Assembly (NCBI GenBank): GCA_913065025.1
Contig: CAJYAP010000002.1
Coordinates: 20,022 to 84,021, forward strand
Origin: an uncultured Gammaproteobacteria bacterium
GTDB lineage: Bacteria > Pseudomonadota > Gammaproteobacteria > Poriferisulfidales > GCA-002705445
Length of the DNA stretch: 64,000 bases
Direction of reading: 5' to 3'
The number at the start of each line of letters is the position of its first letter. Within the stretch, counting starts at the first letter, position 1. The translations under genes were made by a program, and so were the position numbers. The notes beneath the pieces were generated by a model, which searched no databases, was not told the origin of the DNA, and was given only the letters and a program-made list of their open reading frames with translations. Of this stretch, positions 14,394-57,826 are shown piece by piece.

Positions 14394-14471
14394 TGGCGGA
14401 GTGGACGGGACTCGAACCCGCGACCCCCTGCGTGACAGGCAGGTATTCTAACCAAACTGAACTACCACTCC
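14394..14471 (-). tRNA. tRNA-Asp (GTC)
   Basis: Reverse complement GGAGTGGTAGTTCAGTTTGGTTAGAATACCTGCCTGTCACGCAGGGGGTCGCGGGTTCGAGTCCCGTCCACTCCGCCA is near-identical to E. coli tRNA-Asp. CCA is encoded. Confidence 0.95.
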
Positions 14472-14488
14472 TAATACTCTACCTTCTT

Positions 14489-14564
14489 TGGTGGGTGCTG
14501 AGGGATTCGAACCCCCGACATCCGCCTTGTAAGGGCGACGCTCTACCAACTGAGCTAAGCACCC
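14489..14564 (-). tRNA. tRNA-Val (TAC)
   Basis: Reverse complement GGGTGCTTAGCTCAGTTGGTAGAGCGTCGCCCTTACAAGGCGGATGTCGGGGGTTCGAATCCCTCAGCACCCACCA. Anticodon loop is CTTACAA. Confidence 0.95.
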
Positions 14565-20787: not shown

Positions 20788-20872
20788 TGGTGGGCTAGGA
20801 GAGACTCGAACTCTCACGGGTTGCCCCACTGGTACCTAAAACCAGCGCGTATACCAATTCCGCCACTAGCCC
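20788..20872 (-). tRNA. tRNA-Leu (TAG), long variable arm
   Basis: Reverse complement GGGCTAGTGGCGGAATTGGTATACGCGCTGGTTTTAGGTACCAGTGGGGCAACCCGTGAGAGTTCGAGTCTCTCCTAGCCCACCA. Confidence 0.92.
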
Positions 20873-21831: not shown

Positions 21832-23226
21832 TTACATCATATATGATAATCCAAGATTACACTTGAAATCGGGATCCATTTGTGGTCCATCTACGTCTTC
21901 ATATATTGGAACACCGCATTGAATGCCGATTCTTGATTTTGAATTAGGTAGTTTGAAATTTAAACCAATATTTGATGATACTCTTAAATGCGAATGAAAA
22001 TATTCATTCCATGTTGGTGTCATATTATTTCTATTTGATGATTTTCCATTAATATTATCTTGATGTTCAACGTCTAAACCAAATGACAAACTTACTGTCT
22101 GTGAAACTGGTTTTGCTACCCAAGCTGACAATTCTCTTCTATCGCCATATCTCCAATCTTCACTGTTGTAGTCAAATCTTTTTGTTGCATTTAATTGAAA
22201 ACCATATGACCAATCGTCATGTATTTCCTGAAAACTATAACCTAATGTAAGATCATATGTTCCTGAGCCAAGCTGCATTGGATAAGGCAAAACTTTTCTC
22301 ATTCCCATCATATTATGATCTTTTTCATCATATTCACCTGTGGGAATTGATAAGGAAGCTTTTAAATTAGATTTTCCTGATAGTTTATATAGTCCTGCAA
22401 TGCTCAAATCACCCATTCCCCTGCTACTTGTTTTGTGTGTGTTTCCCACATTCATTCCTGACAATTTAACCATTTCCATTTCTTTTTCAATATAAGAAAT
22501 CATAGCCATCAAAGAAATCTTATTATTAACTGCGTACATTGCACTAAACATATGCATATCCATGGTCATATCAGTAGGAGCCATGCTAAACCCTAAATTT
22601 TTTATGAAATCATTACTAACTGAGCTTGTGCTATCTTTGCAACAGTCCATTTCCATGGTTCCATATTTATAACCAAACATGAGCTTTTTAGACATCATAT
22701 TTTTTCCGCCTTTTACCCCTGCTGGAAAAACATAATCTGGGCGCATCATATTTTTCATCATATGACCCATATCACCCATATCCATTTTCATTTTCATTTT
22801 CATTACAGTCATTTTCTTTACCGTAAAGACCGAAGAGAATACATCTCCACTTTTAGTAATAAAAGTAACATCAATTTCTTGATTTTCTTTGAAATCTTCA
22901 TCAGGCATCATAAACATTAAATGATAACTCATTGGCTTAAACTCAAATCTTGCATTTGCGCTAATTGTAACTGAATCTTGCTTTACCATTTTCATTACAT
23001 CACCATCTTTAACGGTATCGTGTATTTCCATAGAATCATATTTACTACTAGAAACTCCTACTATAGTAATATCCTTATCAGAATTATTTATAATAGTAAA
23101 ATAACCCGCTGCCATATTTACACCAGGTGGCATTAATCTAATTTTAGGACTTTCTATTGTCACGTCAATTGCATTTGCTGCATTTGCTGTAAAAATAAAA
23201 GCGATTATTAAAAGTAATTTTTTCAT
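21832..23226 (-). CDS. Secreted fusion protein: PCu(A)C copper chaperone domain + Met-rich linker + outer-membrane beta-barrel (MetA/phenol-degradation-type transporter family)
   Basis: Signal peptide MKKLLLIIAFIFTANAANA. Exact PCu(A)C motif: H69-X10-M80-X21-H102-X-M104. Linker MTVMKMKMKMDMGDMGHMMKNMM. C-terminal 300 aa show amphipathic strand periodicity and LSIPTGEYD...LGSGTYDLTLGYSF. Confidence 0.7.
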   Translation of the reverse strand: MKKLLLIIAFIFTANAANAIDVTIESPKIRLMPPGVNMAAGYFTIINNSDKDITIVGVSSSKYDSMEIHDTVKDGDVMKMVKQDSVTISANARFEFKPMSYHLMFMMPDEDFKENQEIDVTFITKSGDVFSSVFTVKKMTVMKMKMKMDMGDMGHMMKNMMRPDYVFPAGVKGGKNMMSKKLMFGYKYGTMEMDCCKDSTSSVSNDFIKNLGFSMAPTDMTMDMHMFSAMYAVNNKISLMAMISYIEKEMEMVKLSGMNVGNTHKTSSRGMGDLSIAGLYKLSGKSNLKASLSIPTGEYDEKDHNMMGMRKVLPYPMQLGSGTYDLTLGYSFQEIHDDWSYGFQLNATKRFDYNSEDWRYGDRRELSAWVAKPVSQTVSLSFGLDVEHQDNINGKSSNRNNMTPTWNEYFHSHLRVSSNIGLNFKLPNSKSRIGIQCGVPIYEDVDGPQMDPDFKCNLGLSYMM

Positions 23227-23250
23227 TTTTTTTGTACCCCTGTTTTATAT

Positions 23251-23269
23251 ATCACTGTTAAGCAGTGAT
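23251..23269. promoter_or_regulatory. Perfect 7-5-7 palindrome (ATCACTG ttaag CAGTGAT), candidate operator upstream of the PCu(A)C-barrel gene
   Basis: Located 25-43 nt upstream of the ATG at 23226. Not followed by a T-tract on either strand, so unlikely to be a terminator. Confidence 0.35.
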
Positions 23270-23361
23270 TGCTTTATATTAAGTTTGTGATTTATATAGC
23301 TAAATTTTCAATGATTAATATCATATTTTGATAGTAATCATTTTATAAATTAAATAAGAAT

Positions 23362-23727
23362 TTAGATTTTGACCAAACTAGGTGGTGCTCTTATCAAGAA
23401 GTGATTATTAAGATTATTCCCATGTATCGTATTTCTATTTATATCTGAAAAAGCAAAAAGGGTTTTTCTTTCAAATATGAAATTTTGTTTATTAAAAATG
23501 AAATTTGATTGAACATCCAGACAACAATGCATTATCTGAGAAACATCCTGAGTTTCATTATTAACACCTTGGTCGCTTACTGGAATTTTCTTTATGCCAT
23601 AAGACGTACACAAATTAATAAAACTATCTTCACTTCCTAAAATTGATTGAGCGAAAACGCTACTCAATTGTCCAAAAAGGATAGATGCTATTAAAAGCTT
23701 ATTCATTTTTTTGATTTTAAAATTCAT
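23362..23727 (-). CDS. Small secreted protein, DUF2946-like (HC-C motif, C-terminal RAPP)
   Basis: Signal peptide MNKLLIASILFGQLSSVFA-QS. The internal IMHCCLD and the C-terminal FLIRAPPSL resemble the DUF2946 family found in copper-uptake loci (recollection). Confidence 0.45.
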   Translation of the reverse strand: MNFKIKKMNKLLIASILFGQLSSVFAQSILGSEDSFINLCTSYGIKKIPVSDQGVNNETQDVSQIMHCCLDVQSNFIFNKQNFIFERKTLFAFSDINRNTIHGNNLNNHFLIRAPPSLVKI

Positions 23728-23758: not shown

Positions 23759-24154
23759 TCAATGTATTAGAAGCAAAAGTATTATTGAAAATATAATAAT
23801 AAGGAAATTAATAATTACTGACATCAAATGAAGAATTTTAAATCTTCTTTGATTATTCACGTCTCTTGATTTATTAATCAAAGGCATCAATAAATAATTA
23901 CTAAATATGAATAAGAATAATATTAGAATTGAAATATATAAAATATTTCCAGATTTTTCAGTATACAGCATTAAAATAGTTAAAATTAAGTACTGCAAGC
24001 CATTATATTTATAGTAAGTTGGAAATATAGATCTTACGAACTTTCCTGCTTCCTCATTTGAAAGAACAGTAAATATTTTTGGCGCTATTGCAATAGAAAA
24101 GAAAAGCATTGATCCTAATACTAAAGCAGGGATAATTTTTATTAGAAGTTCCAT
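23759..24154 (-). CDS. DUF4149 (TMEM205-like) 4-TM membrane protein
   Basis: 131 aa with four hydrophobic segments. The N-terminal IAIAPKIFTVLSNEEAGKFVRSIFPTYY resembles the DUF4149 signature. Confidence 0.5.
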   Translation of the reverse strand: MELLIKIIPALVLGSMLFFSIAIAPKIFTVLSNEEAGKFVRSIFPTYYKYNGLQYLILTILMLYTEKSGNILYISILILFLFIFSNYLLMPLINKSRDVNNQRRFKILHLMSVIINFLIIIFSIILLLLIH

Positions 24155-24240: not shown

Positions 24241-24317
24241 TGGGGCGAGAGACGGGGATCGAACCCGCGACAACCGGTACCACAAACCAGCGCTCTACCA
24301 ACTGAGCTACTCCCGCC
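24241..24317 (-). tRNA. tRNA-His (GTG) with encoded G-1
   Basis: Reverse complement GGCGGGAGTAGCTCAGTTGGTAGAGCGCTGGTTTGTGGTACCGGTTGTCGCGGGTTCGATCCCCGTCTCTCGCCCCA. The extra 5' G pairs with C73. Confidence 0.93.
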
Positions 24318-24325
24318 ATAAAAGC

Positions 24326-24402
24326 TGGTGCGCCTGATAGGACTCGAACCTATTACCCTCGGATTAGAAATCCGATGCTCTATCCAGATGAGCTACAGGC
24401 GC
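24326..24402 (-). tRNA. tRNA-Arg (TCT)
   Basis: Reverse complement GCGCCTGTAGCTCATCTGGATAGAGCATCGGATTTCTAATCCGAGGGTAATAGGTTCGAGTCCTATCAGGCGCACCA. Confidence 0.93.
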
Positions 24403-24408
24403 ATCATA

Positions 24409-24485
24409 TGGTCGGGGTAGAGGGATTTGAACCCCCGACATCCTGCTCCCAAAGCAGGCGCGCTACCAGACTGCGCTATACCCCG
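24409..24485 (-). tRNA. tRNA-Pro (TGG)
   Basis: Reverse complement CGGGGTATAGCGCAGTCTGGTAGCGCGCCTGCTTTGGGAGCAGGATGTCGGGGGTTCAAATCCCTCTACCCCGACCA. Confidence 0.93.
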
Positions 24486-55912: not shown

Positions 55913-57826
55913 TTAAGCAATATTCATATTAAGAATTCCTTCCATTTTTTCAGCAGTTTCGGATTTGCCAGTTCTACTATCACCTATCATAGCTACTGTT
56001 ACATCAACTTCATGTAAATCTTTTCCTAGTTTCTCTCTTTTTTTAATAGCAAATTCTTTAACAGAAACTATTAGAGATTCTGCAAGTCTTATTGGACCCT
56101 CTTGCTCAATTTCTTCCCTATTTTTAAACCCAGACTCTAAAACTTTCTCGTCAGTATTTCCTTCATACACCCCTGCCATTAACATGCTGTATGCGACACC
56201 AACTTCCATATCACCCGTTTTAACTAATTTTTCAATAGTTGAAATTAATTCTTCTTCTGTATCGGTATACTTTTCATATAAATCTTTATGAATAATTGTA
56301 CCGTCATTATCTTTCAACAAAGGAAATGGGTTAGCCCAATAACTAATCTCTGTGCCACCTCTTCCGGTCTGAGTACTTCCAGCGGCACATCTTCTTCCAT
56401 CATGAAAATGAACAATTGCATCTTTAACTGGCATTCCTGTATCAACCATTGTTTCCCCAGGTTTTTTTAAATCATAATTATTTATATAAAGTAATAAATC
56501 TAAATTACTTCCGGTCGAAACCTCGTTTTCTTCTGCCACAGGAACAATTTGTCTAGCATTTGTACCAGCCGAGGCATTGTAACCGATCTCTCTTCCAATA
56601 AGCTGAAGCTTTGCTTGTTCGCTAAATCCGTCGAGGCATGCAAAAGCTCCAATTTCAGTGCCGTAGAATTTCAATTTTTTTAATTTATCATTATCGCTTT
56701 TATAAAACTCTGCCTTACCCATATCATCAGCTTTTATATATATATCCGAAATAAATGGCTCATTTGTATCCTTGTCAAAACCAACAACGTATCTATTACA
56801 TCCACAATGTAAGGGAAAGTCTCCTTTAAGAATAGCAAGAACATTGTGTAATGTTAAAATTGGTTTTTTACAGTAACCAAAATAACCATATTCAGGTAAG
56901 TCAGGAACAAGCCCAATTAATATATCGTTTTCCTTGTCATTATAAAAACCTAAATCTTTTTCTGTTGCCCCAGGATAGCCAAAGAAAAATATTCCGTCTG
57001 GTTTTTTATTTACAAAGTCTTTATCGATCTTATATAGTGGAAACAAGTTTAATAATCCTGGCTCCATTTCAATACATCCTCGAGATTTATGAATGTAAGC
57101 TGTTATTAACCACTTCCCAACACTTAAAGGTACAGCAACCCAATCGTTGGGTTCAAAATTATCTAAATTCAAAGGATTGTGATTTAATTCATAGAACGGA
57201 AAAGCTCTTTTGTTTACTGATGTCTCGTAATGTACTCCGGTTTTAATATCTGCAGTAACTGTTAAGTTTGTATGCGCGAGCTTCGAATAAGCTGAGGGGA
57301 TACTTCCAAAATGCCCAGATATTTCTCCAGCAGTAACATTGGGGGATGCATCTAAACCATGAGATCTTGAAACACCGTGGCCAAGACCAACTCTATCAAG
57401 TAATTTTCTTCTTGTGGTAATAATTAATTCAGAGAGATCTTCTGCTTTGTCAGATATTTTTGCTTTAAATGATTTTTGCGATTCTGAGCCAGAAGTTATT
57501 ATATCATTATTCATTCTAACCAATCTAGAAAAGCTTTTATTTCTATAATGATGATAGCAGCCATCTAGGAATCTAACTATTGCCCTATCTCTTTCTAATT
57601 CAACACCCGTGGCTTCTCTTTCAAAGATTTGAAGGATATCTTTTAAGGTTAAATTAGCAATAAGCTCCGTTTTCTGTTTAGCTTCTTGAGAATGTTTTTC
57701 CCCTTTCTTTTCAAGATCTTCAAGATATTCCTTCTTATATATTTTCAAATATCTTGCGAAAGCGTAACTTCTTAAAAGCTGCTCTGATGTTACACAACTA
57801 TCTTTTATCTCTAGTATCGATTCCAC
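55913..57826 (-). CDS. Hypothetical 637-aa soluble protein, family not recognised
   Basis: Uninterrupted ORF with a GTG start and GGGGA SD 6 nt upstream. No signal peptide or TM segment. I found no P-loop, HExxH, GxGxxG or CxxxCxxC. Notable strings are GLGHGVSRSHGLD, PLHCGCNRY and FHDGRRCAAGSTQTGRGGTE. Confidence 0.8.
   Translation of the reverse strand: MESILEIKDSCVTSEQLLRSYAFARYLKIYKKEYLEDLEKKGEKHSQEAKQKTELIANLTLKDILQIFEREATGVELERDRAIVRFLDGCYHHYRNKSFSRLVRMNNDIITSGSESQKSFKAKISDKAEDLSELIITTRRKLLDRVGLGHGVSRSHGLDASPNVTAGEISGHFGSIPSAYSKLAHTNLTVTADIKTGVHYETSVNKRAFPFYELNHNPLNLDNFEPNDWVAVPLSVGKWLITAYIHKSRGCIEMEPGLLNLFPLYKIDKDFVNKKPDGIFFFGYPGATEKDLGFYNDKENDILIGLVPDLPEYGYFGYCKKPILTLHNVLAILKGDFPLHCGCNRYVVGFDKDTNEPFISDIYIKADDMGKAEFYKSDNDKLKKLKFYGTEIGAFACLDGFSEQAKLQLIGREIGYNASAGTNARQIVPVAEENEVSTGSNLDLLLYINNYDLKKPGETMVDTGMPVKDAIVHFHDGRRCAAGSTQTGRGGTEISYWANPFPLLKDNDGTIIHKDLYEKYTDTEEELISTIEKLVKTGDMEVGVAYSMLMAGVYEGNTDEKVLESGFKNREEIEQEGPIRLAESLIVSVKEFAIKKREKLGKDLHEVDVTVAMIGDSRTGKSETAEKMEGILNMNIA

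What the first reader, a model, noticed from the sequence alone, without database searches (positions are those of the whole stretch)
21832..23226. PCu(A)C copper chaperone fused through a Met-rich linker to an outer-membrane beta-barrel: candidate TonB-independent copper channel
Directly visible features: (1) A cleavable signal peptide. (2) A domain that fits the published PCu(A)C Cu(I) motif exactly, H69-X10-M80-X21-H102-X-M104. (3) A 23-residue linker with 11 Met plus His/Asp (MTVMKMKMKMDMGDMGHMMKNMM, nt 22744-22812, seen as a run of CAT triplets on the plus strand), and further Met clusters (TDMTMDMHMFSAM). (4) About 300 C-terminal residues with alternating-hydrophobic strands and an LPTG.YD / LG.G.YD pattern that I associate with the MetA/phenol-degradation family of small OM barrels. 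PCu(A)C is normally a free periplasmic chaperone, and copper import across the OM is normally attributed to TonB-dependent OprC/NosA-type receptors. I do not recall a characterised protein with a chaperone covalently tethered to a small barrel. The architecture suggests Cu(I) capture by the Met-rich segment and hand-off at the periplasmic mouth of the pore.
Basis: partly seen in the sequence, partly recalled or inferred. Interest (0 to 1): 0.7.

Follow-up and report, generated by a model that had tools for sequence, protein, structure and literature searches.

The report
Copper chaperone fused to outer-membrane channel
This gene joins a periplasmic copper chaperone to a small methionine-lined outer-membrane barrel, and relatives show the barrel belongs to a large unstudied family that repeatedly teams up with copper chaperones and copper-sensing leader peptides, so it is probably a TonB-independent copper gate.

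Summary
ORF 21832-23226 (-) encodes a signal peptide, a PCuAC domain with the exact H-X10-M-X21-H-X-M motif, a disordered linker with 11 Met, and a 12-stranded COG4313/FapF-like barrel (AF2 pLDDT 88.7). The fusion is intact in more than 40 protein clusters. The two "split" relatives are frameshifts in error-prone long-read assemblies.

1. The barrel belongs to a widespread, unnamed subfamily (at least 598 species). About 13 Met/His residues, 88-100% conserved, lie on the inferred lumen face of strands 1-3.
2. Different lineages fuse this barrel to four different copper-chaperone domains: PCuAC (at least two separate lineages), CusF, NosL and YtkA/CtaK. No non-copper domain was found.
3. The NosL fusion sits inside a Tenacibaculum nos operon. 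The CusF fusion follows a CusF-SCO1 gene.
4. CruR/CutF-type (DUF2946) copper-sensing leader ORFs precede 11 of 69 barrel genes, against 3 of 2812 control ORFs. One precedes the window's gene (23362-23727): RAPP occurs once in the whole window, 5 codons before this ORF's stop.

Import is favoured over efflux but not shown. No paper found links this family to copper.

The parts
21832..23226 (-). Whole gene: signal peptide, PCuAC domain, Met-rich linker, 12-stranded barrel (464 aa)
   Evidence: ORF. Pfam. AF2 pLDDT 88.7. Foldseek. More than 40 full-length homologous clusters.
23170..23226 (-). Signal peptide, aa 1-19 (MKKLLLIIAFIFTANAANA)
   Evidence: Read from the sequence: positive n-region, hydrophobic core, A-N-A before the predicted cut. 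AF2 gives a helix at 2-17. No signal-peptide predictor was run.
22843..23154 (-). PCuAC Cu(I)-chaperone domain, aa 25-128, with ligands H69, M80, H102, M104
   Evidence: PF04314, 98.3 bits. Motif exact. The four ligands are 100% conserved in the 28 fused sequences aligned. PDB sequence hits to AccA, DR1885 and TtPCuAC. Fold TM 0.84-0.89.
22744..22812 (-). Met-rich disordered linker, aa 139-161 (11 Met)
   Evidence: pLDDT below 50 at 142-154. Within the clade its composition is kept (Met, with variable His and Asp) but its sequence and length (12-44 aa) are not.
22684..22743 (-). Pre-barrel segment, aa 162-181 (RPDYVFPAGVKGGKNMMSKK). It lies where COG4313 channels have a lumen-inserted N-terminal segment
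   Evidence: P168 is invariant and G170, V171 and G173 are about 90-100% conserved family-wide. Stand-alone barrels carry H166, M172, D174, H175 and H177 here; the window's clade has V, K, G, K and M. Placement in the lumen is inferred from Pput2725 (PMC4493636) and was not seen in coordinates.
22465..22683 (-). Barrel strands 1-3, aa 182-254, carrying the conserved methionine ladder (M183, M191, M193; M220, M222, M224, M226, M230; M240, M242, M250, M252) and invariant H225
   Evidence: AF2 strands at 182-199, 215-232 and 237-254. These residues share one strand face, opposite the aromatic face, and are 88-100% conserved in stand-alone relatives from many phyla.
21835..22683 (-). 12-stranded outer-membrane beta-barrel, aa 182-464 (COG4313/FapF-like fold)
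   Evidence: PF13557, 23.8 bits against a cutoff of 22. Foldseek to 5o67 and 4rl8 with TM about 0.7. Clade-specific C195-C196 (92%) and C437, C456 (100%).
23362..23727 (-). Upstream leader ORF (121 aa), CruR/CutF-like: export signal, LCTSYG, HCC (C68, C69), 43 residues, RAPP (aa 113-116), then a 5-residue tail
   Evidence: RAPP (nt 23380-23391) is the only occurrence in all six frames of the window (0.11 expected). Conserved in relatives L085, L086, L087, L088, L006 and L008, with the motifs as the best-conserved parts. Top hit among 179 window ORFs for a profile built from other barrel-associated leader ORFs, E = 0.0013. No Pfam DUF2946 hit.
23227..23361 (-). 135-nt intergenic region between leader ORF and fusion gene, with two hairpins (about 23311-23341 and 23251-23269) and an AGGGG Shine-Dalgarno sequence
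   Evidence: RNA fold -27 kcal/mol, z = -2.77. Palindrome at 23251-23269. Relatives have hairpins of different sequence in the same place. No Rfam family matches. Function not established.
23759..24154 (-). DUF4149 membrane protein gene, same strand, ending 31 nt before the leader ORF. Conserved neighbour within the fused clade; whether it belongs to the system is uncertain
   Evidence: PF13664, 32.6 bits. Syntenic in L003-L005 and L085-L088 and in L007 and L009. Not found next to stand-alone barrels.

Best explanation
The gene encodes a passive, TonB-independent outer-membrane copper channel with its own periplasmic acceptor attached.

After Sec export the C-terminal 283 residues form a 12-stranded COG4313-type barrel. 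One inner wall of that barrel (strands 1-3) is lined by a ladder of about a dozen conserved methionines, a soft-ligand path suited to Cu(I).

The N-terminal PCuAC domain stays in the periplasm on a flexible Met-rich tether. It sits near the periplasmic mouth, takes Cu(I) into its very high-affinity H/M/H/M site, and passes it on to cuproenzyme assembly (Sco/cytochrome oxidase type clients). This high-affinity sink gives net inward flux without an energy source.

Expression is probably tuned to copper by the upstream CruR/CutF-like leader peptide. That peptide would sense copper through its Cys residues while being made and, by stalling or not stalling on RAPP, control transcription or translation of the channel gene.

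Shown here: the domain architecture, the fold, conservation of the fusion, the conserved Met ladder, the recurrent fusion of this barrel family to four copper-chaperone families, the nos-operon and SCO1 contexts, and the enrichment of RAPP leader ORFs.

Inferred, not shown: that copper passes through the barrel, the direction of flux, that the Met ladder faces the lumen, hand-off to PCuAC, and the sign of the regulation.
For: Fold and domains.

Conserved fusion: more than 40 clusters at 59-98% identity plus L008 at 45%.

The barrel subfamily is large: at least 598 species in the genome collection and 268 50%-identity representatives at E <= 1e-30. Sources call its members only 'transporter', 'alpha-amylase' or 'hypothetical'.

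Met ladder: M183, M191, M193, M220, M222, M224, M226, M230, M240, M242 and M250 are 93-100% conserved. They lie on the strand face opposite F184, Y186, Y188, F227, Y231, L239 and Y245.

Independent fusions of this barrel to copper chaperones:
- PCuAC in Alphaproteobacteria (L059/P0121 and 6 further clusters; PF04314 119 bits). Its barrel is 60% identical to the stand-alone barrel L069 but 33% to the window's.
- A further PCuAC fusion, P0275 (124 bits).
- CusF_Ec (L077/P0264).
- NosL (P0247, 100.6 bits; P0259).
- YtkA/CtaK-like (P0266, P0347).
None of the 20 long representatives scanned had a non-copper domain.

Contexts:
- The NosL-barrel fusion lies inside a nos operon in cultured Tenacibaculum, in the order cytochrome c, NosZ, NosL, NosL-barrel, CopD-like, NosD, NosF, then a 260-aa gene without a Pfam hit that I take to be NosY from its position.
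- The CusF-barrel fusion follows a CusF-SCO1/SenC gene and precedes NnrS.
- P0275 follows a Pfam-recognised DUF2946 gene with CPMC, 45 residues, RAPP, and a 160-nt spacer.

Leader ORFs: 13 of 69 loci by the RAPP criterion. With a stricter Cys-plus-Pro criterion, 11 of 69 against 3 of 2812 control ORFs. Window leader ORF.

CruR is an experimentally shown copper-responsive leader ORF that heads copper-import operons (PMC9426467).

Three of the four partner families (PCuAC, NosL, CtaK) are cuproenzyme-assembly chaperones (PMC7558416, PMC13344008), which favours supply over detoxification.

YcnJ (CopC-CopD-YtkA) is a precedent for an importer fused to a delivery chaperone (PMC13344008).
Against: There are no transport, binding or expression data.

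Direction is not settled. DUF2946 leaders also switch on detoxification and efflux genes (CutF; PMC9973294). CusF is an efflux chaperone in E. coli. The direction of the analogous PcoB is itself disputed (PMC9210255 against PMC12509749).

The window's leader ORF has HCC rather than CXXC and gets no Pfam DUF2946 hit. It is absent from one fused subclade (L003-5, L007, L009).

The window's clade has lost the His cluster of the pre-barrel segment that stand-alone barrels conserve.

Pfam support for the barrel family is marginal (23.8 against 22 bits), and a family profile finds no PDB sequence at E <= 10.

No other copper gene lies near the gene in the window.

Characterised COG4313 members are linked to hydrophobic substrates (PMC4493636).
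Confidence: 0.62

Rival explanations
1. The architecture is the same but the flux runs the other way, or both ways. The barrel would be a PcoB-like release valve: the tethered PCuAC (or CusF and so on) collects excess periplasmic Cu(I) and feeds it to the Met-lined pore for release, and the leader ORF switches the gene on when copper rises, as CutF does.
For: DUF2946 leaders most often head efflux and detoxification operons in the CutF survey (PMC9973294). There is a CusF fusion. Caulobacter PcoB with a His/Met-rich N-terminal region acts in efflux (PMC12509749). Many family members are cyanobacterial, and from general knowledge cyanobacteria are copper-sensitive.
Against: A passive barrel cannot export against the external concentration under copper stress; the same argument is made for PcoB in PMC9210255. 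Three of the four partner families are assembly chaperones. The contexts found are a nos operon and SCO1, not multicopper oxidase, Cus or CopA genes. The leader ORFs here carry the CruR-type RAPP with 43-45-residue spacing and long spacers, as in the import-controlling CruR. The host appears to be a streamlined marine bacterium with low-GC DNA; copper scarcity in its habitat is an assumption from general knowledge.
Confidence: 0.17
2. The barrel does not conduct copper. It would anchor the chaperone to the inner face of the outer membrane, or act as a copper-binding buffer or sensor, with the Met ladder as a binding surface rather than a path.
For: Pput2725 has a narrow, N-terminally occluded lumen and conducts poorly. 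AF2 gives no information on pore openness. Some PCuAC and NosL proteins are membrane-tethered lipoproteins (general knowledge).
Against: Most family members are stand-alone barrels with nothing to anchor, yet they keep the Met ladder and the His motif at 88-100%. A lipid anchor would be a far cheaper tether. The position in the nos operon is the role that the outer-membrane copper channel NosA fills in other bacteria (PMC7558416).
Confidence: 0.1
3. The barrel carries a hydrophobic or amphipathic substrate like other COG4313 members, possibly a copper-binding small molecule (a chalkophore-like complex) rather than the ion. The chaperone would then strip copper from it in the periplasm.
For: The family name and the bound detergent in Pput2725. 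Seawater copper is mostly bound to organic ligands (general knowledge).
Against: A conserved Met/His ladder is typical of direct soft-metal coordination, as in OprC's CxxxM-HxM site. No biosynthetic or metallophore genes recur nearby. No sequence similarity to characterised COG4313 members is detectable.
Confidence: 0.07
4. The fusion is an artefact: two adjacent genes (PCuAC and barrel) merged by an assembly or gene-calling error.
For: Two relatives are called as two genes (P0042/L087 and P0043/L088).
Against: More than 40 independent clusters from ENA, JGI, Tara, NCBI and Logan have one uninterrupted frame, as do genome MAGs and a single-cell genome. The split cases are on long-read assemblies where neighbouring housekeeping genes are also fragmented, and L087 is a 1-nt frameshift next to a G-run.
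Confidence: 0.01

Closest known systems
PcoB/CopB outer-membrane copper barrel (PF05275; PDB structure described in PMC9210255)
   Same: A small TonB-independent outer-membrane barrel dedicated to copper, preceded by a disordered periplasmic Met/His-rich N-terminal region whose composition, not sequence, is conserved (PMC12509749).
   Different: There is no sequence relationship: no CopB Pfam hit and no PDB sequence hit. PcoB's pore is lined with acidic residues suited to Cu(II), whereas here it is a Met ladder suited to Cu(I). PcoB pairs with the multicopper oxidase PcoA and has no folded chaperone domain fused to it. PcoB was not among the top 50 Foldseek matches.
OprC/NosA TonB-dependent copper receptors
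   Same: Outer-membrane copper uptake for cuproenzymes. They are repressed by copper and preceded by CruR-type leader ORFs (PMC9426467). They bind Cu(I) through Met/His/Cys ligands (CxxxM-HxM). NosA serves N2O reductase, matching the nos-operon position of the NosL-barrel fusion.
   Different: They have a 22-stranded barrel with a plug domain and need TonB energy. None of this is present here.
COG4313 / Phenol_MetA_deg channels (Pput2725, PDB 4RL8; SphA, TcpY) and FapF
   Same: The same 12-stranded fold (TM about 0.7). A marginal Pfam PF13557 hit. A conserved segment directly before strand 1, which in Pput2725 folds into the lumen (PMC4493636).
   Different: Characterised members are linked to hydrophobic substrates or, for FapF, amyloid secretion. 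No copper link was found in the literature searched. The Met ladder, the His motif and the chaperone fusions define a separate subfamily with no detectable sequence similarity to the solved members.
Free periplasmic PCuAC chaperones (TtPCuAC, PcuC, PccA, AccA)
   Same: The same domain, the same four Cu(I) ligands and the same fold. The Met-rich linker sits where many PCuACs carry a disordered His/Met tail (PMC13006917).
   Different: Those are soluble or lipid-anchored single-domain proteins. Here the tail continues into an outer-membrane barrel.
YcnJ of Bacillus subtilis (CopC-CopD-YtkA)
   Same: A copper importer covalently fused to a CuA-assembly chaperone domain (PMC13344008). The same YtkA domain is one of the partners fused to this barrel family.
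   Different: YcnJ is a cytoplasmic-membrane helical transporter of a Gram-positive bacterium, not an outer-membrane barrel.
CruR (Bordetella) and CutF (Rhodobacter) DUF2946 leader ORFs
   Same: The window's upstream ORF shares the exported N-terminus, the [IL]CTxxG motif, a Cys pair, a 43-44-residue spacing, a C-terminal RAPP, and a long structured spacer before a copper gene.
   Different: It has HCC instead of CXXC or CxxxC. It scores below Pfam detection. Its regulatory effect and sign are untested.

Membership tests
PCuAC (PF04314) copper chaperone | Pfam model score above the gathering threshold | tested here: met
   98.3 bits against 29.4, aa 25-128.
PCuAC (PF04314) copper chaperone | H(M)X10MX21HXM Cu(I) ligand motif (PMC7558416) | tested here: met
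   H69, M80, H102 and M104 with exact spacing. 100% conserved in the 28 fused relatives aligned.
PCuAC (PF04314) copper chaperone | Cupredoxin-like beta fold | tested here: met
   AF2 pLDDT of 89-96 over the domain. Foldseek TM 0.84-0.89 to 9yah, 2k6w and 3zk0.
PCuAC (PF04314) copper chaperone | Binds Cu(I) and delivers it to cuproenzymes | not testable with these tools
   Needs purified protein and genetics.
COG4313 / Phenol_MetA_deg (PF13557) outer-membrane channels | Pfam model score above the gathering threshold | tested here: met
   23.8 bits against 22, which is marginal. Relatives in the subfamily score from 19 to 63.7 bits.
COG4313 / Phenol_MetA_deg (PF13557) outer-membrane channels | Monomeric 12-stranded beta-barrel | tested here: met
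   AF2 strand pattern. The best structural matches are the 12-stranded 5o67 and 4rl8, TM about 0.7. Barrel closure was not inspected in coordinates.
COG4313 / Phenol_MetA_deg (PF13557) outer-membrane channels | N-terminal segment folded into the barrel lumen | tested here: inconclusive
   A conserved 20-residue segment precedes strand 1, but its position in the model could not be read because no coordinates were available.
COG4313 / Phenol_MetA_deg (PF13557) outer-membrane channels | Uptake of hydrophobic molecules | not testable with these tools
   The contexts found here point to copper instead.
CruR/CutF (DUF2946, PF11162) copper-sensing leader ORF (applies to 23362-23727) | Pfam model score above the gathering threshold | tested here: not met
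   No hit at E <= 10. Counterparts upstream of L059 and L030 reach 23.7 and 24.0 bits against a cutoff of 23.7, and the L091 counterpart carries an unmarked precomputed PF11162 hit (E at most 1e-5).
CruR/CutF (DUF2946, PF11162) copper-sensing leader ORF (applies to 23362-23727) | C-terminal RAPP arrest motif a few residues before the stop | tested here: met
   RAPP at aa 113-116 of 121. It is the only RAPP in six frames of 64 kb (0.11 expected). Conserved in six relatives.
CruR/CutF (DUF2946, PF11162) copper-sensing leader ORF (applies to 23362-23727) | CXXC (or CxxxC) copper-binding motif | tested here: not met
   The window has adjacent Cys residues (M-H-C-C-L-D). This NCC/HCC form is conserved in the clade.
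CruR/CutF (DUF2946, PF11162) copper-sensing leader ORF (applies to 23362-23727) | About 45 residues between the Cys motif and RAPP | tested here: met
   43 residues from C69 and 44 from C68. CruR has 45, and its regulation tolerates plus or minus 2 (PMC9426467).
CruR/CutF (DUF2946, PF11162) copper-sensing leader ORF (applies to 23362-23727) | Export signal; first gene before a copper gene, with a long spacer | tested here: met
   Hydrophobic N-terminus ending AQS (by inspection). 135-nt structured spacer.
CruR/CutF (DUF2946, PF11162) copper-sensing leader ORF (applies to 23362-23727) | Copper-dependent control of the downstream gene | not testable with these tools
   Needs reporter fusions.
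PcoB/CopB (PF05275) | Sequence membership (Pfam CopB model) | tested here: not met
   No hit at E <= 1. No PDB sequence hit for the single protein or the family profile.
TonB-dependent copper receptors (OprC/NosA) | Plug domain plus 22-stranded barrel | tested here: not met
   No Plug or TonB_dep_Rec Pfam hit. The barrel is a 283-residue 12-stranded fold.

The most novel reading that the evidence does not exclude
The window's gene would be one member of a large, phylum-spanning and so far unrecognised class of passive methionine-lined outer-membrane copper channels. The class plugs directly into interchangeable periplasmic copper chaperones (PCuAC, NosL, CtaK/YtkA, CusF) and is gated by copper-sensing arrest peptides. 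That would supply the missing TonB-independent route by which many Gram-negative bacteria, including streamlined marine plankton, cyanobacteria and N2O reducers, obtain copper for respiration and denitrification.
Probability: 0.5. Interest if true: 0.85.

Novelty: new variant of a known kind. Interest (0 to 1): 0.76.

Why it matters
How copper crosses the Gram-negative outer membrane is a recognised gap. A 2020 review lists only general porins, the TonB-dependent NosA/OprC, and chalkophore receptors, and says import has been analysed in only a few cases (PMC7558416).

If this barrel family is a copper channel, four things follow:
- It gives a function to hundreds of proteins now labelled 'transporter', 'alpha-amylase', 'NosL' or 'PCu(A)C'.
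- It offers a copper-supply route for organisms that have no OprC/NosA-type receptor. I did not check which family carriers lack one.
- It identifies a likely copper-supply step for N2O reductase in Tenacibaculum-type nos clusters, which bears on N2O emissions.
- It adds a new class of target gene for CruR/CutF arrest-peptide regulation.

The hypothesis can be tested directly in cultured carriers (Tenacibaculum, Ruegeria, Rubritalea, filamentous cyanobacteria).

Tried and rejected
1. Conserved operon partners of stand-alone barrels. All-against-all clustering of 2938 flanking ORFs from 79 loci found no recurrent neighbour except small RAPP-ending ORFs.

2. Separate PCuAC genes near stand-alone barrels. 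A clade HMM hit only the fusions within +-6 kb. The link to chaperones is therefore by fusion, not adjacency.

3. Split-gene refutation. P0042/L087 and P0043/L088 were examined and attributed to long-read indel errors.

4. A specific regulatory structure. In the minimum-free-energy fold the RAPP Pro-Pro codons (CCACCU) pair with the fusion gene's Shine-Dalgarno region. The pairing is predicted in 4 of 6 AT-rich relatives. It is absent in L088, L008 and L059, and in most cases is within about 2 sd of shuffled-spacer controls. I kept it only as an idea.

5. Intrinsic terminator in the spacer. The only terminator-like hit is on the wrong strand. No Rfam riboswitch matches.

6. Sequence link of the barrel to solved structures or to PcoB. 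None was found, even with a family profile at E <= 10.

7. DUF4149 as a system component. It is syntenic only within the fused clade, and nothing relevant is published apart from a DUF4149 gene in a fungal copper-responsive cluster.

9. The first literature query was too loose and uninformative. The targeted queries found no prior link between this family and copper, within an open-access library only.
Full report
OBSERVATION

- The N-terminus (MKKLLLIIAFIFTANAANA|IDV) looks like a Sec signal peptide. This is by inspection only.
- The motif H69-X10-M80-X21-H102-X-M104 is exact.
- The linker is aa 139-161, nt 22744-22812, with 11 Met.
- The protein is 9.9% Met. The window's 46 long ORFs average 2.35%.
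- Pfam gives PCuAC at 98.3 bits (cutoff 29.4) over aa 25-128 and Phenol_MetA_deg at 23.8 bits (cutoff 22) over aa 255-395.
- AlphaFold2 on an 87-sequence alignment gives pLDDT 88.7. Only residues 142-154 are disordered.
- Foldseek matches the C-terminal domain to the 12-stranded barrels FapF and COG4313 Pput2725 (TM about 0.7). It matches the N-terminal domain to PCuAC structures (AccA: TM 0.89, rmsd 1.7 A).

IS THE FUSION REAL?

The full-length architecture recurs in more than 40 protein clusters at 59-98% identity from ENA, JGI, Tara, NCBI and Logan. It also appears in marine gammaproteobacterial MAGs and one single-cell genome, including a lineage at 45% identity (L008) that keeps a Met-rich linker.

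The locus is syntenic core genome: DUF4149, (leader ORF), fusion, Rce1-like gene (convergent), tig, clpP, clpX, lon.

Two relatives are called as two genes. Both sit on long-read assemblies where tig, clpP and the Rce1-like gene are also fragmented, and L087 is a single-base frameshift next to a G-run in the linker.

Within the clade the PCuAC ligands are 100% conserved. The linker keeps fixed ends (VKKM...MxNMxR) but varies from 12 to 44 residues and from 3 to 14 Met, with variable His and Asp. That is compositional rather than sequence conservation, as seen for PCuAC tails and the PcoB N-terminal region (PMC13006917, PMC12509749).

THE BARREL IS THE REAL STORY

Below about 45% identity the homologues are stand-alone barrels of roughly 285-390 aa. 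They are very widespread.
- At least 598 species in the genome collection carry one, including cyanobacteria, Ruegeria, Verrucomicrobia, Planctomycetota, Thermodesulfobacteriota, and many Alpha- and Gammaproteobacteria. Bacteroidota (Tenacibaculum) turned up later.
- There are 268 representatives at 50% identity with E <= 1e-30, and 1886 with E <= 1e-10.
- Sources call them only 'transporter', 'alpha-amylase' or 'hypothetical'.

They share a pre-barrel motif, RPDSHAPIGVMGDHxHxxGE, and the motifs WMxSYRYMxMxMDG and PTxMTMDMHM.

I combined AF2 strand boundaries with conservation. In strands 1-3 one face carries aromatic or aliphatic residues (F184, Y186, Y188; F227, A229, Y231; L237, L239, A241, Y245). 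The opposite face carries M183, M189, M191, M193 / M220, M222, M224, M226, M230 / M240, M242, M250, H252. Each of these is 88-100% conserved across phyla, and H225 is invariant.

I read this as a methionine ladder lining one wall of the lumen.

The conserved pre-barrel segment lies where Pput2725's N-terminal 14 residues fold into the lumen (PMC4493636).

The window's clade differs from the family consensus. It has lost the His cluster of that segment (H166V, M172K, D174G, H175K, H177M) and H252 (now M). It has gained C195-C196 at the outer end of strand 1, and C437 and C456. The result is a ligand set with far fewer conserved His residues and more Met and Cys.

INDEPENDENT EVIDENCE FOR COPPER

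(a) Fusion partners.
I Pfam-scanned 20 long family representatives and selected genome loci. The identifiable N-terminal partners were:
- PCuAC: the window clade; P0275 at 124 bits; and L059/P0121 at 119 bits, which recurs in 7 clusters at 46-100% identity.
- CusF_Ec: L077/P0264.
- NosL: P0247 at 100.6 bits, and P0259.
- YtkA-like: P0266 and P0347.

The other long representatives have low-complexity or Met-rich extensions. No non-copper domain was found.

All four partner families handle copper in the periplasm or on the outer face of the membrane. YtkA/CtaK works in CuA assembly and is also fused to the B. subtilis importer YcnJ (PMC13344008). NosL serves N2O reductase, and PCuAC serves the oxidases (PMC7558416).

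A barrel-only neighbour-joining tree, without support values, places L059's barrel among stand-alone barrels: 60% identity to L069 against 33% to the window. It places L077 with another verrucomicrobial barrel. The fusions therefore arose several times.

(b) Contexts.
- In cultured Tenacibaculum (RefSeq proteins annotated merely 'NosL') the NosL-barrel gene lies inside the nos operon: cytochrome c, NosZ, NosL, NosL-barrel, CopD-like, NosD, NosF, then a 260-aa gene with no Pfam hit that I take to be NosY from its position.
- The CusF-barrel gene follows a CusF-SCO1/SenC gene (73 and 60 bits) and precedes NnrS.

(c) Leader ORFs.
The DUF2946 proteins CruR and CutF are experimentally characterised copper-sensing leader peptides. 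Their layout is an export signal, CXXC or CxxxC, about 45 residues, then a C-terminal RAPP or proline-rich arrest motif. They head copper operons (PMC9426467, PMC9973294).

Such ORFs sit directly upstream of barrel genes in 13 of 69 loci by the RAPP criterion. With a stricter Cys-plus-proline criterion the count is 11 of 69, against 3 of 2812 other small ORFs from the same loci. Some reach the Pfam DUF2946 threshold (L059 and L030; L091). L091 shows the canonical form: CPMC, 45 residues, RAPP, a 160-nt spacer, then a PCuAC-barrel gene.

The window has its own leader ORF at 23362-23727 (121 aa).
- Layout: signal-like N-terminus, LCTSYG, M-H-C-C, 43 residues, RAPP, 5 residues, stop, then a 135-nt spacer.
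- RAPP occurs once in all six frames of the 64-kb, 29.5% GC window (0.11 expected).
- The ORF is conserved in six relatives down to the deepest fused lineage, and exactly these motifs are the conserved parts. It has been lost in one subclade (L003-5, L007, L009).
- A profile built only from other barrel-associated leader ORFs ranks it first of 179 window ORFs, at E = 0.0013.
- It does not reach Pfam detection, and it has CC rather than CXXC. I therefore call it CruR-like, not a proven family member.

The spacer folds better than shuffles (z = -2.77), with two hairpins. Relatives have different hairpins in the same place. A tempting pairing between the RAPP codons and the Shine-Dalgarno sequence did not hold up consistently.

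MECHANISM AND DIRECTION

The architecture excludes TonB dependence: there is no plug, and the barrel has 12 strands.

I favour import with hand-off to the tethered PCuAC, for these reasons:
- Three of the four partner families are cuproenzyme-assembly chaperones.
- The contexts are a nos operon and SCO1.
- The leader ORFs are of the CruR type that governs importers.
- The host looks like a streamlined marine bacterium (housekeeping genes only in the window).
- A passive pore needs a high-affinity periplasmic sink to give net uptake, and cannot export against a gradient.

Efflux or two-way flow remains possible, because CutF-type leaders induce detoxification genes, CusF is an efflux chaperone, and the direction of PcoB is disputed.

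COMPARISON AND NOVELTY

- Functionally the closest known system is PcoB/CopB (an outer-membrane copper barrel plus a Met/His-rich disordered region). There is no sequence relationship, and the pore chemistry differs.
- Structurally the closest are COG4313 and FapF barrels, known for hydrophobic substrates or amyloid secretion.
- The design principle of a transporter fused to a delivery chaperone has a precedent in YcnJ.

Full-text searches found no paper linking Phenol_MetA_deg or COG4313 to copper, or describing a PCuAC-barrel fusion. The CruR and CutF neighbour surveys do not list this family in their text or in the supplements held. The searchable library covers open-access papers only.

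I rate this a new variant of a known kind: outer-membrane copper channels and COG4313 barrels.

LIMITS

- All functional claims are comparative inferences.
- The orientation of the Met ladder and the position of the pre-barrel segment were not read from coordinates.
- The tree has no support values.
- Only 20 long representatives were domain-scanned.
- The window itself holds no other copper gene.

Noticed in passing
window 23759-24154 (-): A DUF4149 (TMEM205-like, four predicted TM helices) gene ends 31 nt before the leader ORF on the same strand and is syntenic throughout the fused clade, but it is not found beside stand-alone barrels. The only copper-related mention in the literature is a DUF4149 gene (xanD) in the copper-responsive xan cluster of Aspergillus fumigatus.
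   Followed up: partly
window 24244-24485 (-), 20791-20872 (-), 14397-14564 (-): Six tRNA genes. A cluster of three lies immediately upstream of the DUF4149, leader ORF and fusion genes on the same strand, so read-through transcription from the tRNA cluster is conceivable.
   Followed up: no
window 55913-57826 (-): A 637-aa ORF (GTG start) has no Pfam hit at E <= 1e-5, among otherwise ordinary housekeeping genes (SNF symporter, peptide ABC transporter, PpiD, PurF, aconitase-family protein, UvrD, ValRS).
   Followed up: no
window 21835-21846 (C-terminus of the fusion protein): The fused clade ends in ...SYMM, ...SSMM or ...STMH, whereas the stand-alone barrels whose sequences were inspected mostly end in an aromatic residue (F or W). 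This is a small departure from the usual outer-membrane beta-signal.
   Followed up: no
L090 9001-10857 (Tenacibaculum, GCA_022347705.1): The nos cluster carries two NosL genes, one free and one fused to the barrel, followed by a short CopD-like membrane protein. This could be a complete outer-membrane-to-inner-membrane copper route dedicated to N2O reductase.
   Followed up: partly
L077 5067-8442 (Puniceicoccaceae MAG): The operon reads CusF-SCO1/SenC fusion, CusF-barrel fusion, NnrS. Both copper proteins carry their own CusF-like domain.
   Followed up: partly
P0241 (511 aa representative): It contains an internal tandem duplication of about 150 barrel residues (VLPTDMRMEMHM...SKVRLGR occurs twice). 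This is either an assembly artefact or a real duplication.
   Followed up: no
P0195: A stand-alone barrel homologue (368 aa, 48 member sequences) comes from a eukaryotic protein set (eukprot). It may be contamination, an endosymbiont, or a transferred gene.
   Followed up: no
L022, L064, L041; P0246, P0249, P0256, P0268, P0293: The cyanobacterial loci L022, L041 and L064, and several representatives of unchecked origin with similar sequences, carry N-terminal low-complexity extensions of about 120-160 residues, some of them Pro/Ser-rich. The extensions have no Pfam domain and few Met or His. Their role is unknown.
   Followed up: no
P0149, P0161, P0173: Some family members are annotated 'alpha-amylase' in NCBI or UniRef. 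This looks like a propagated misannotation.
   Followed up: no
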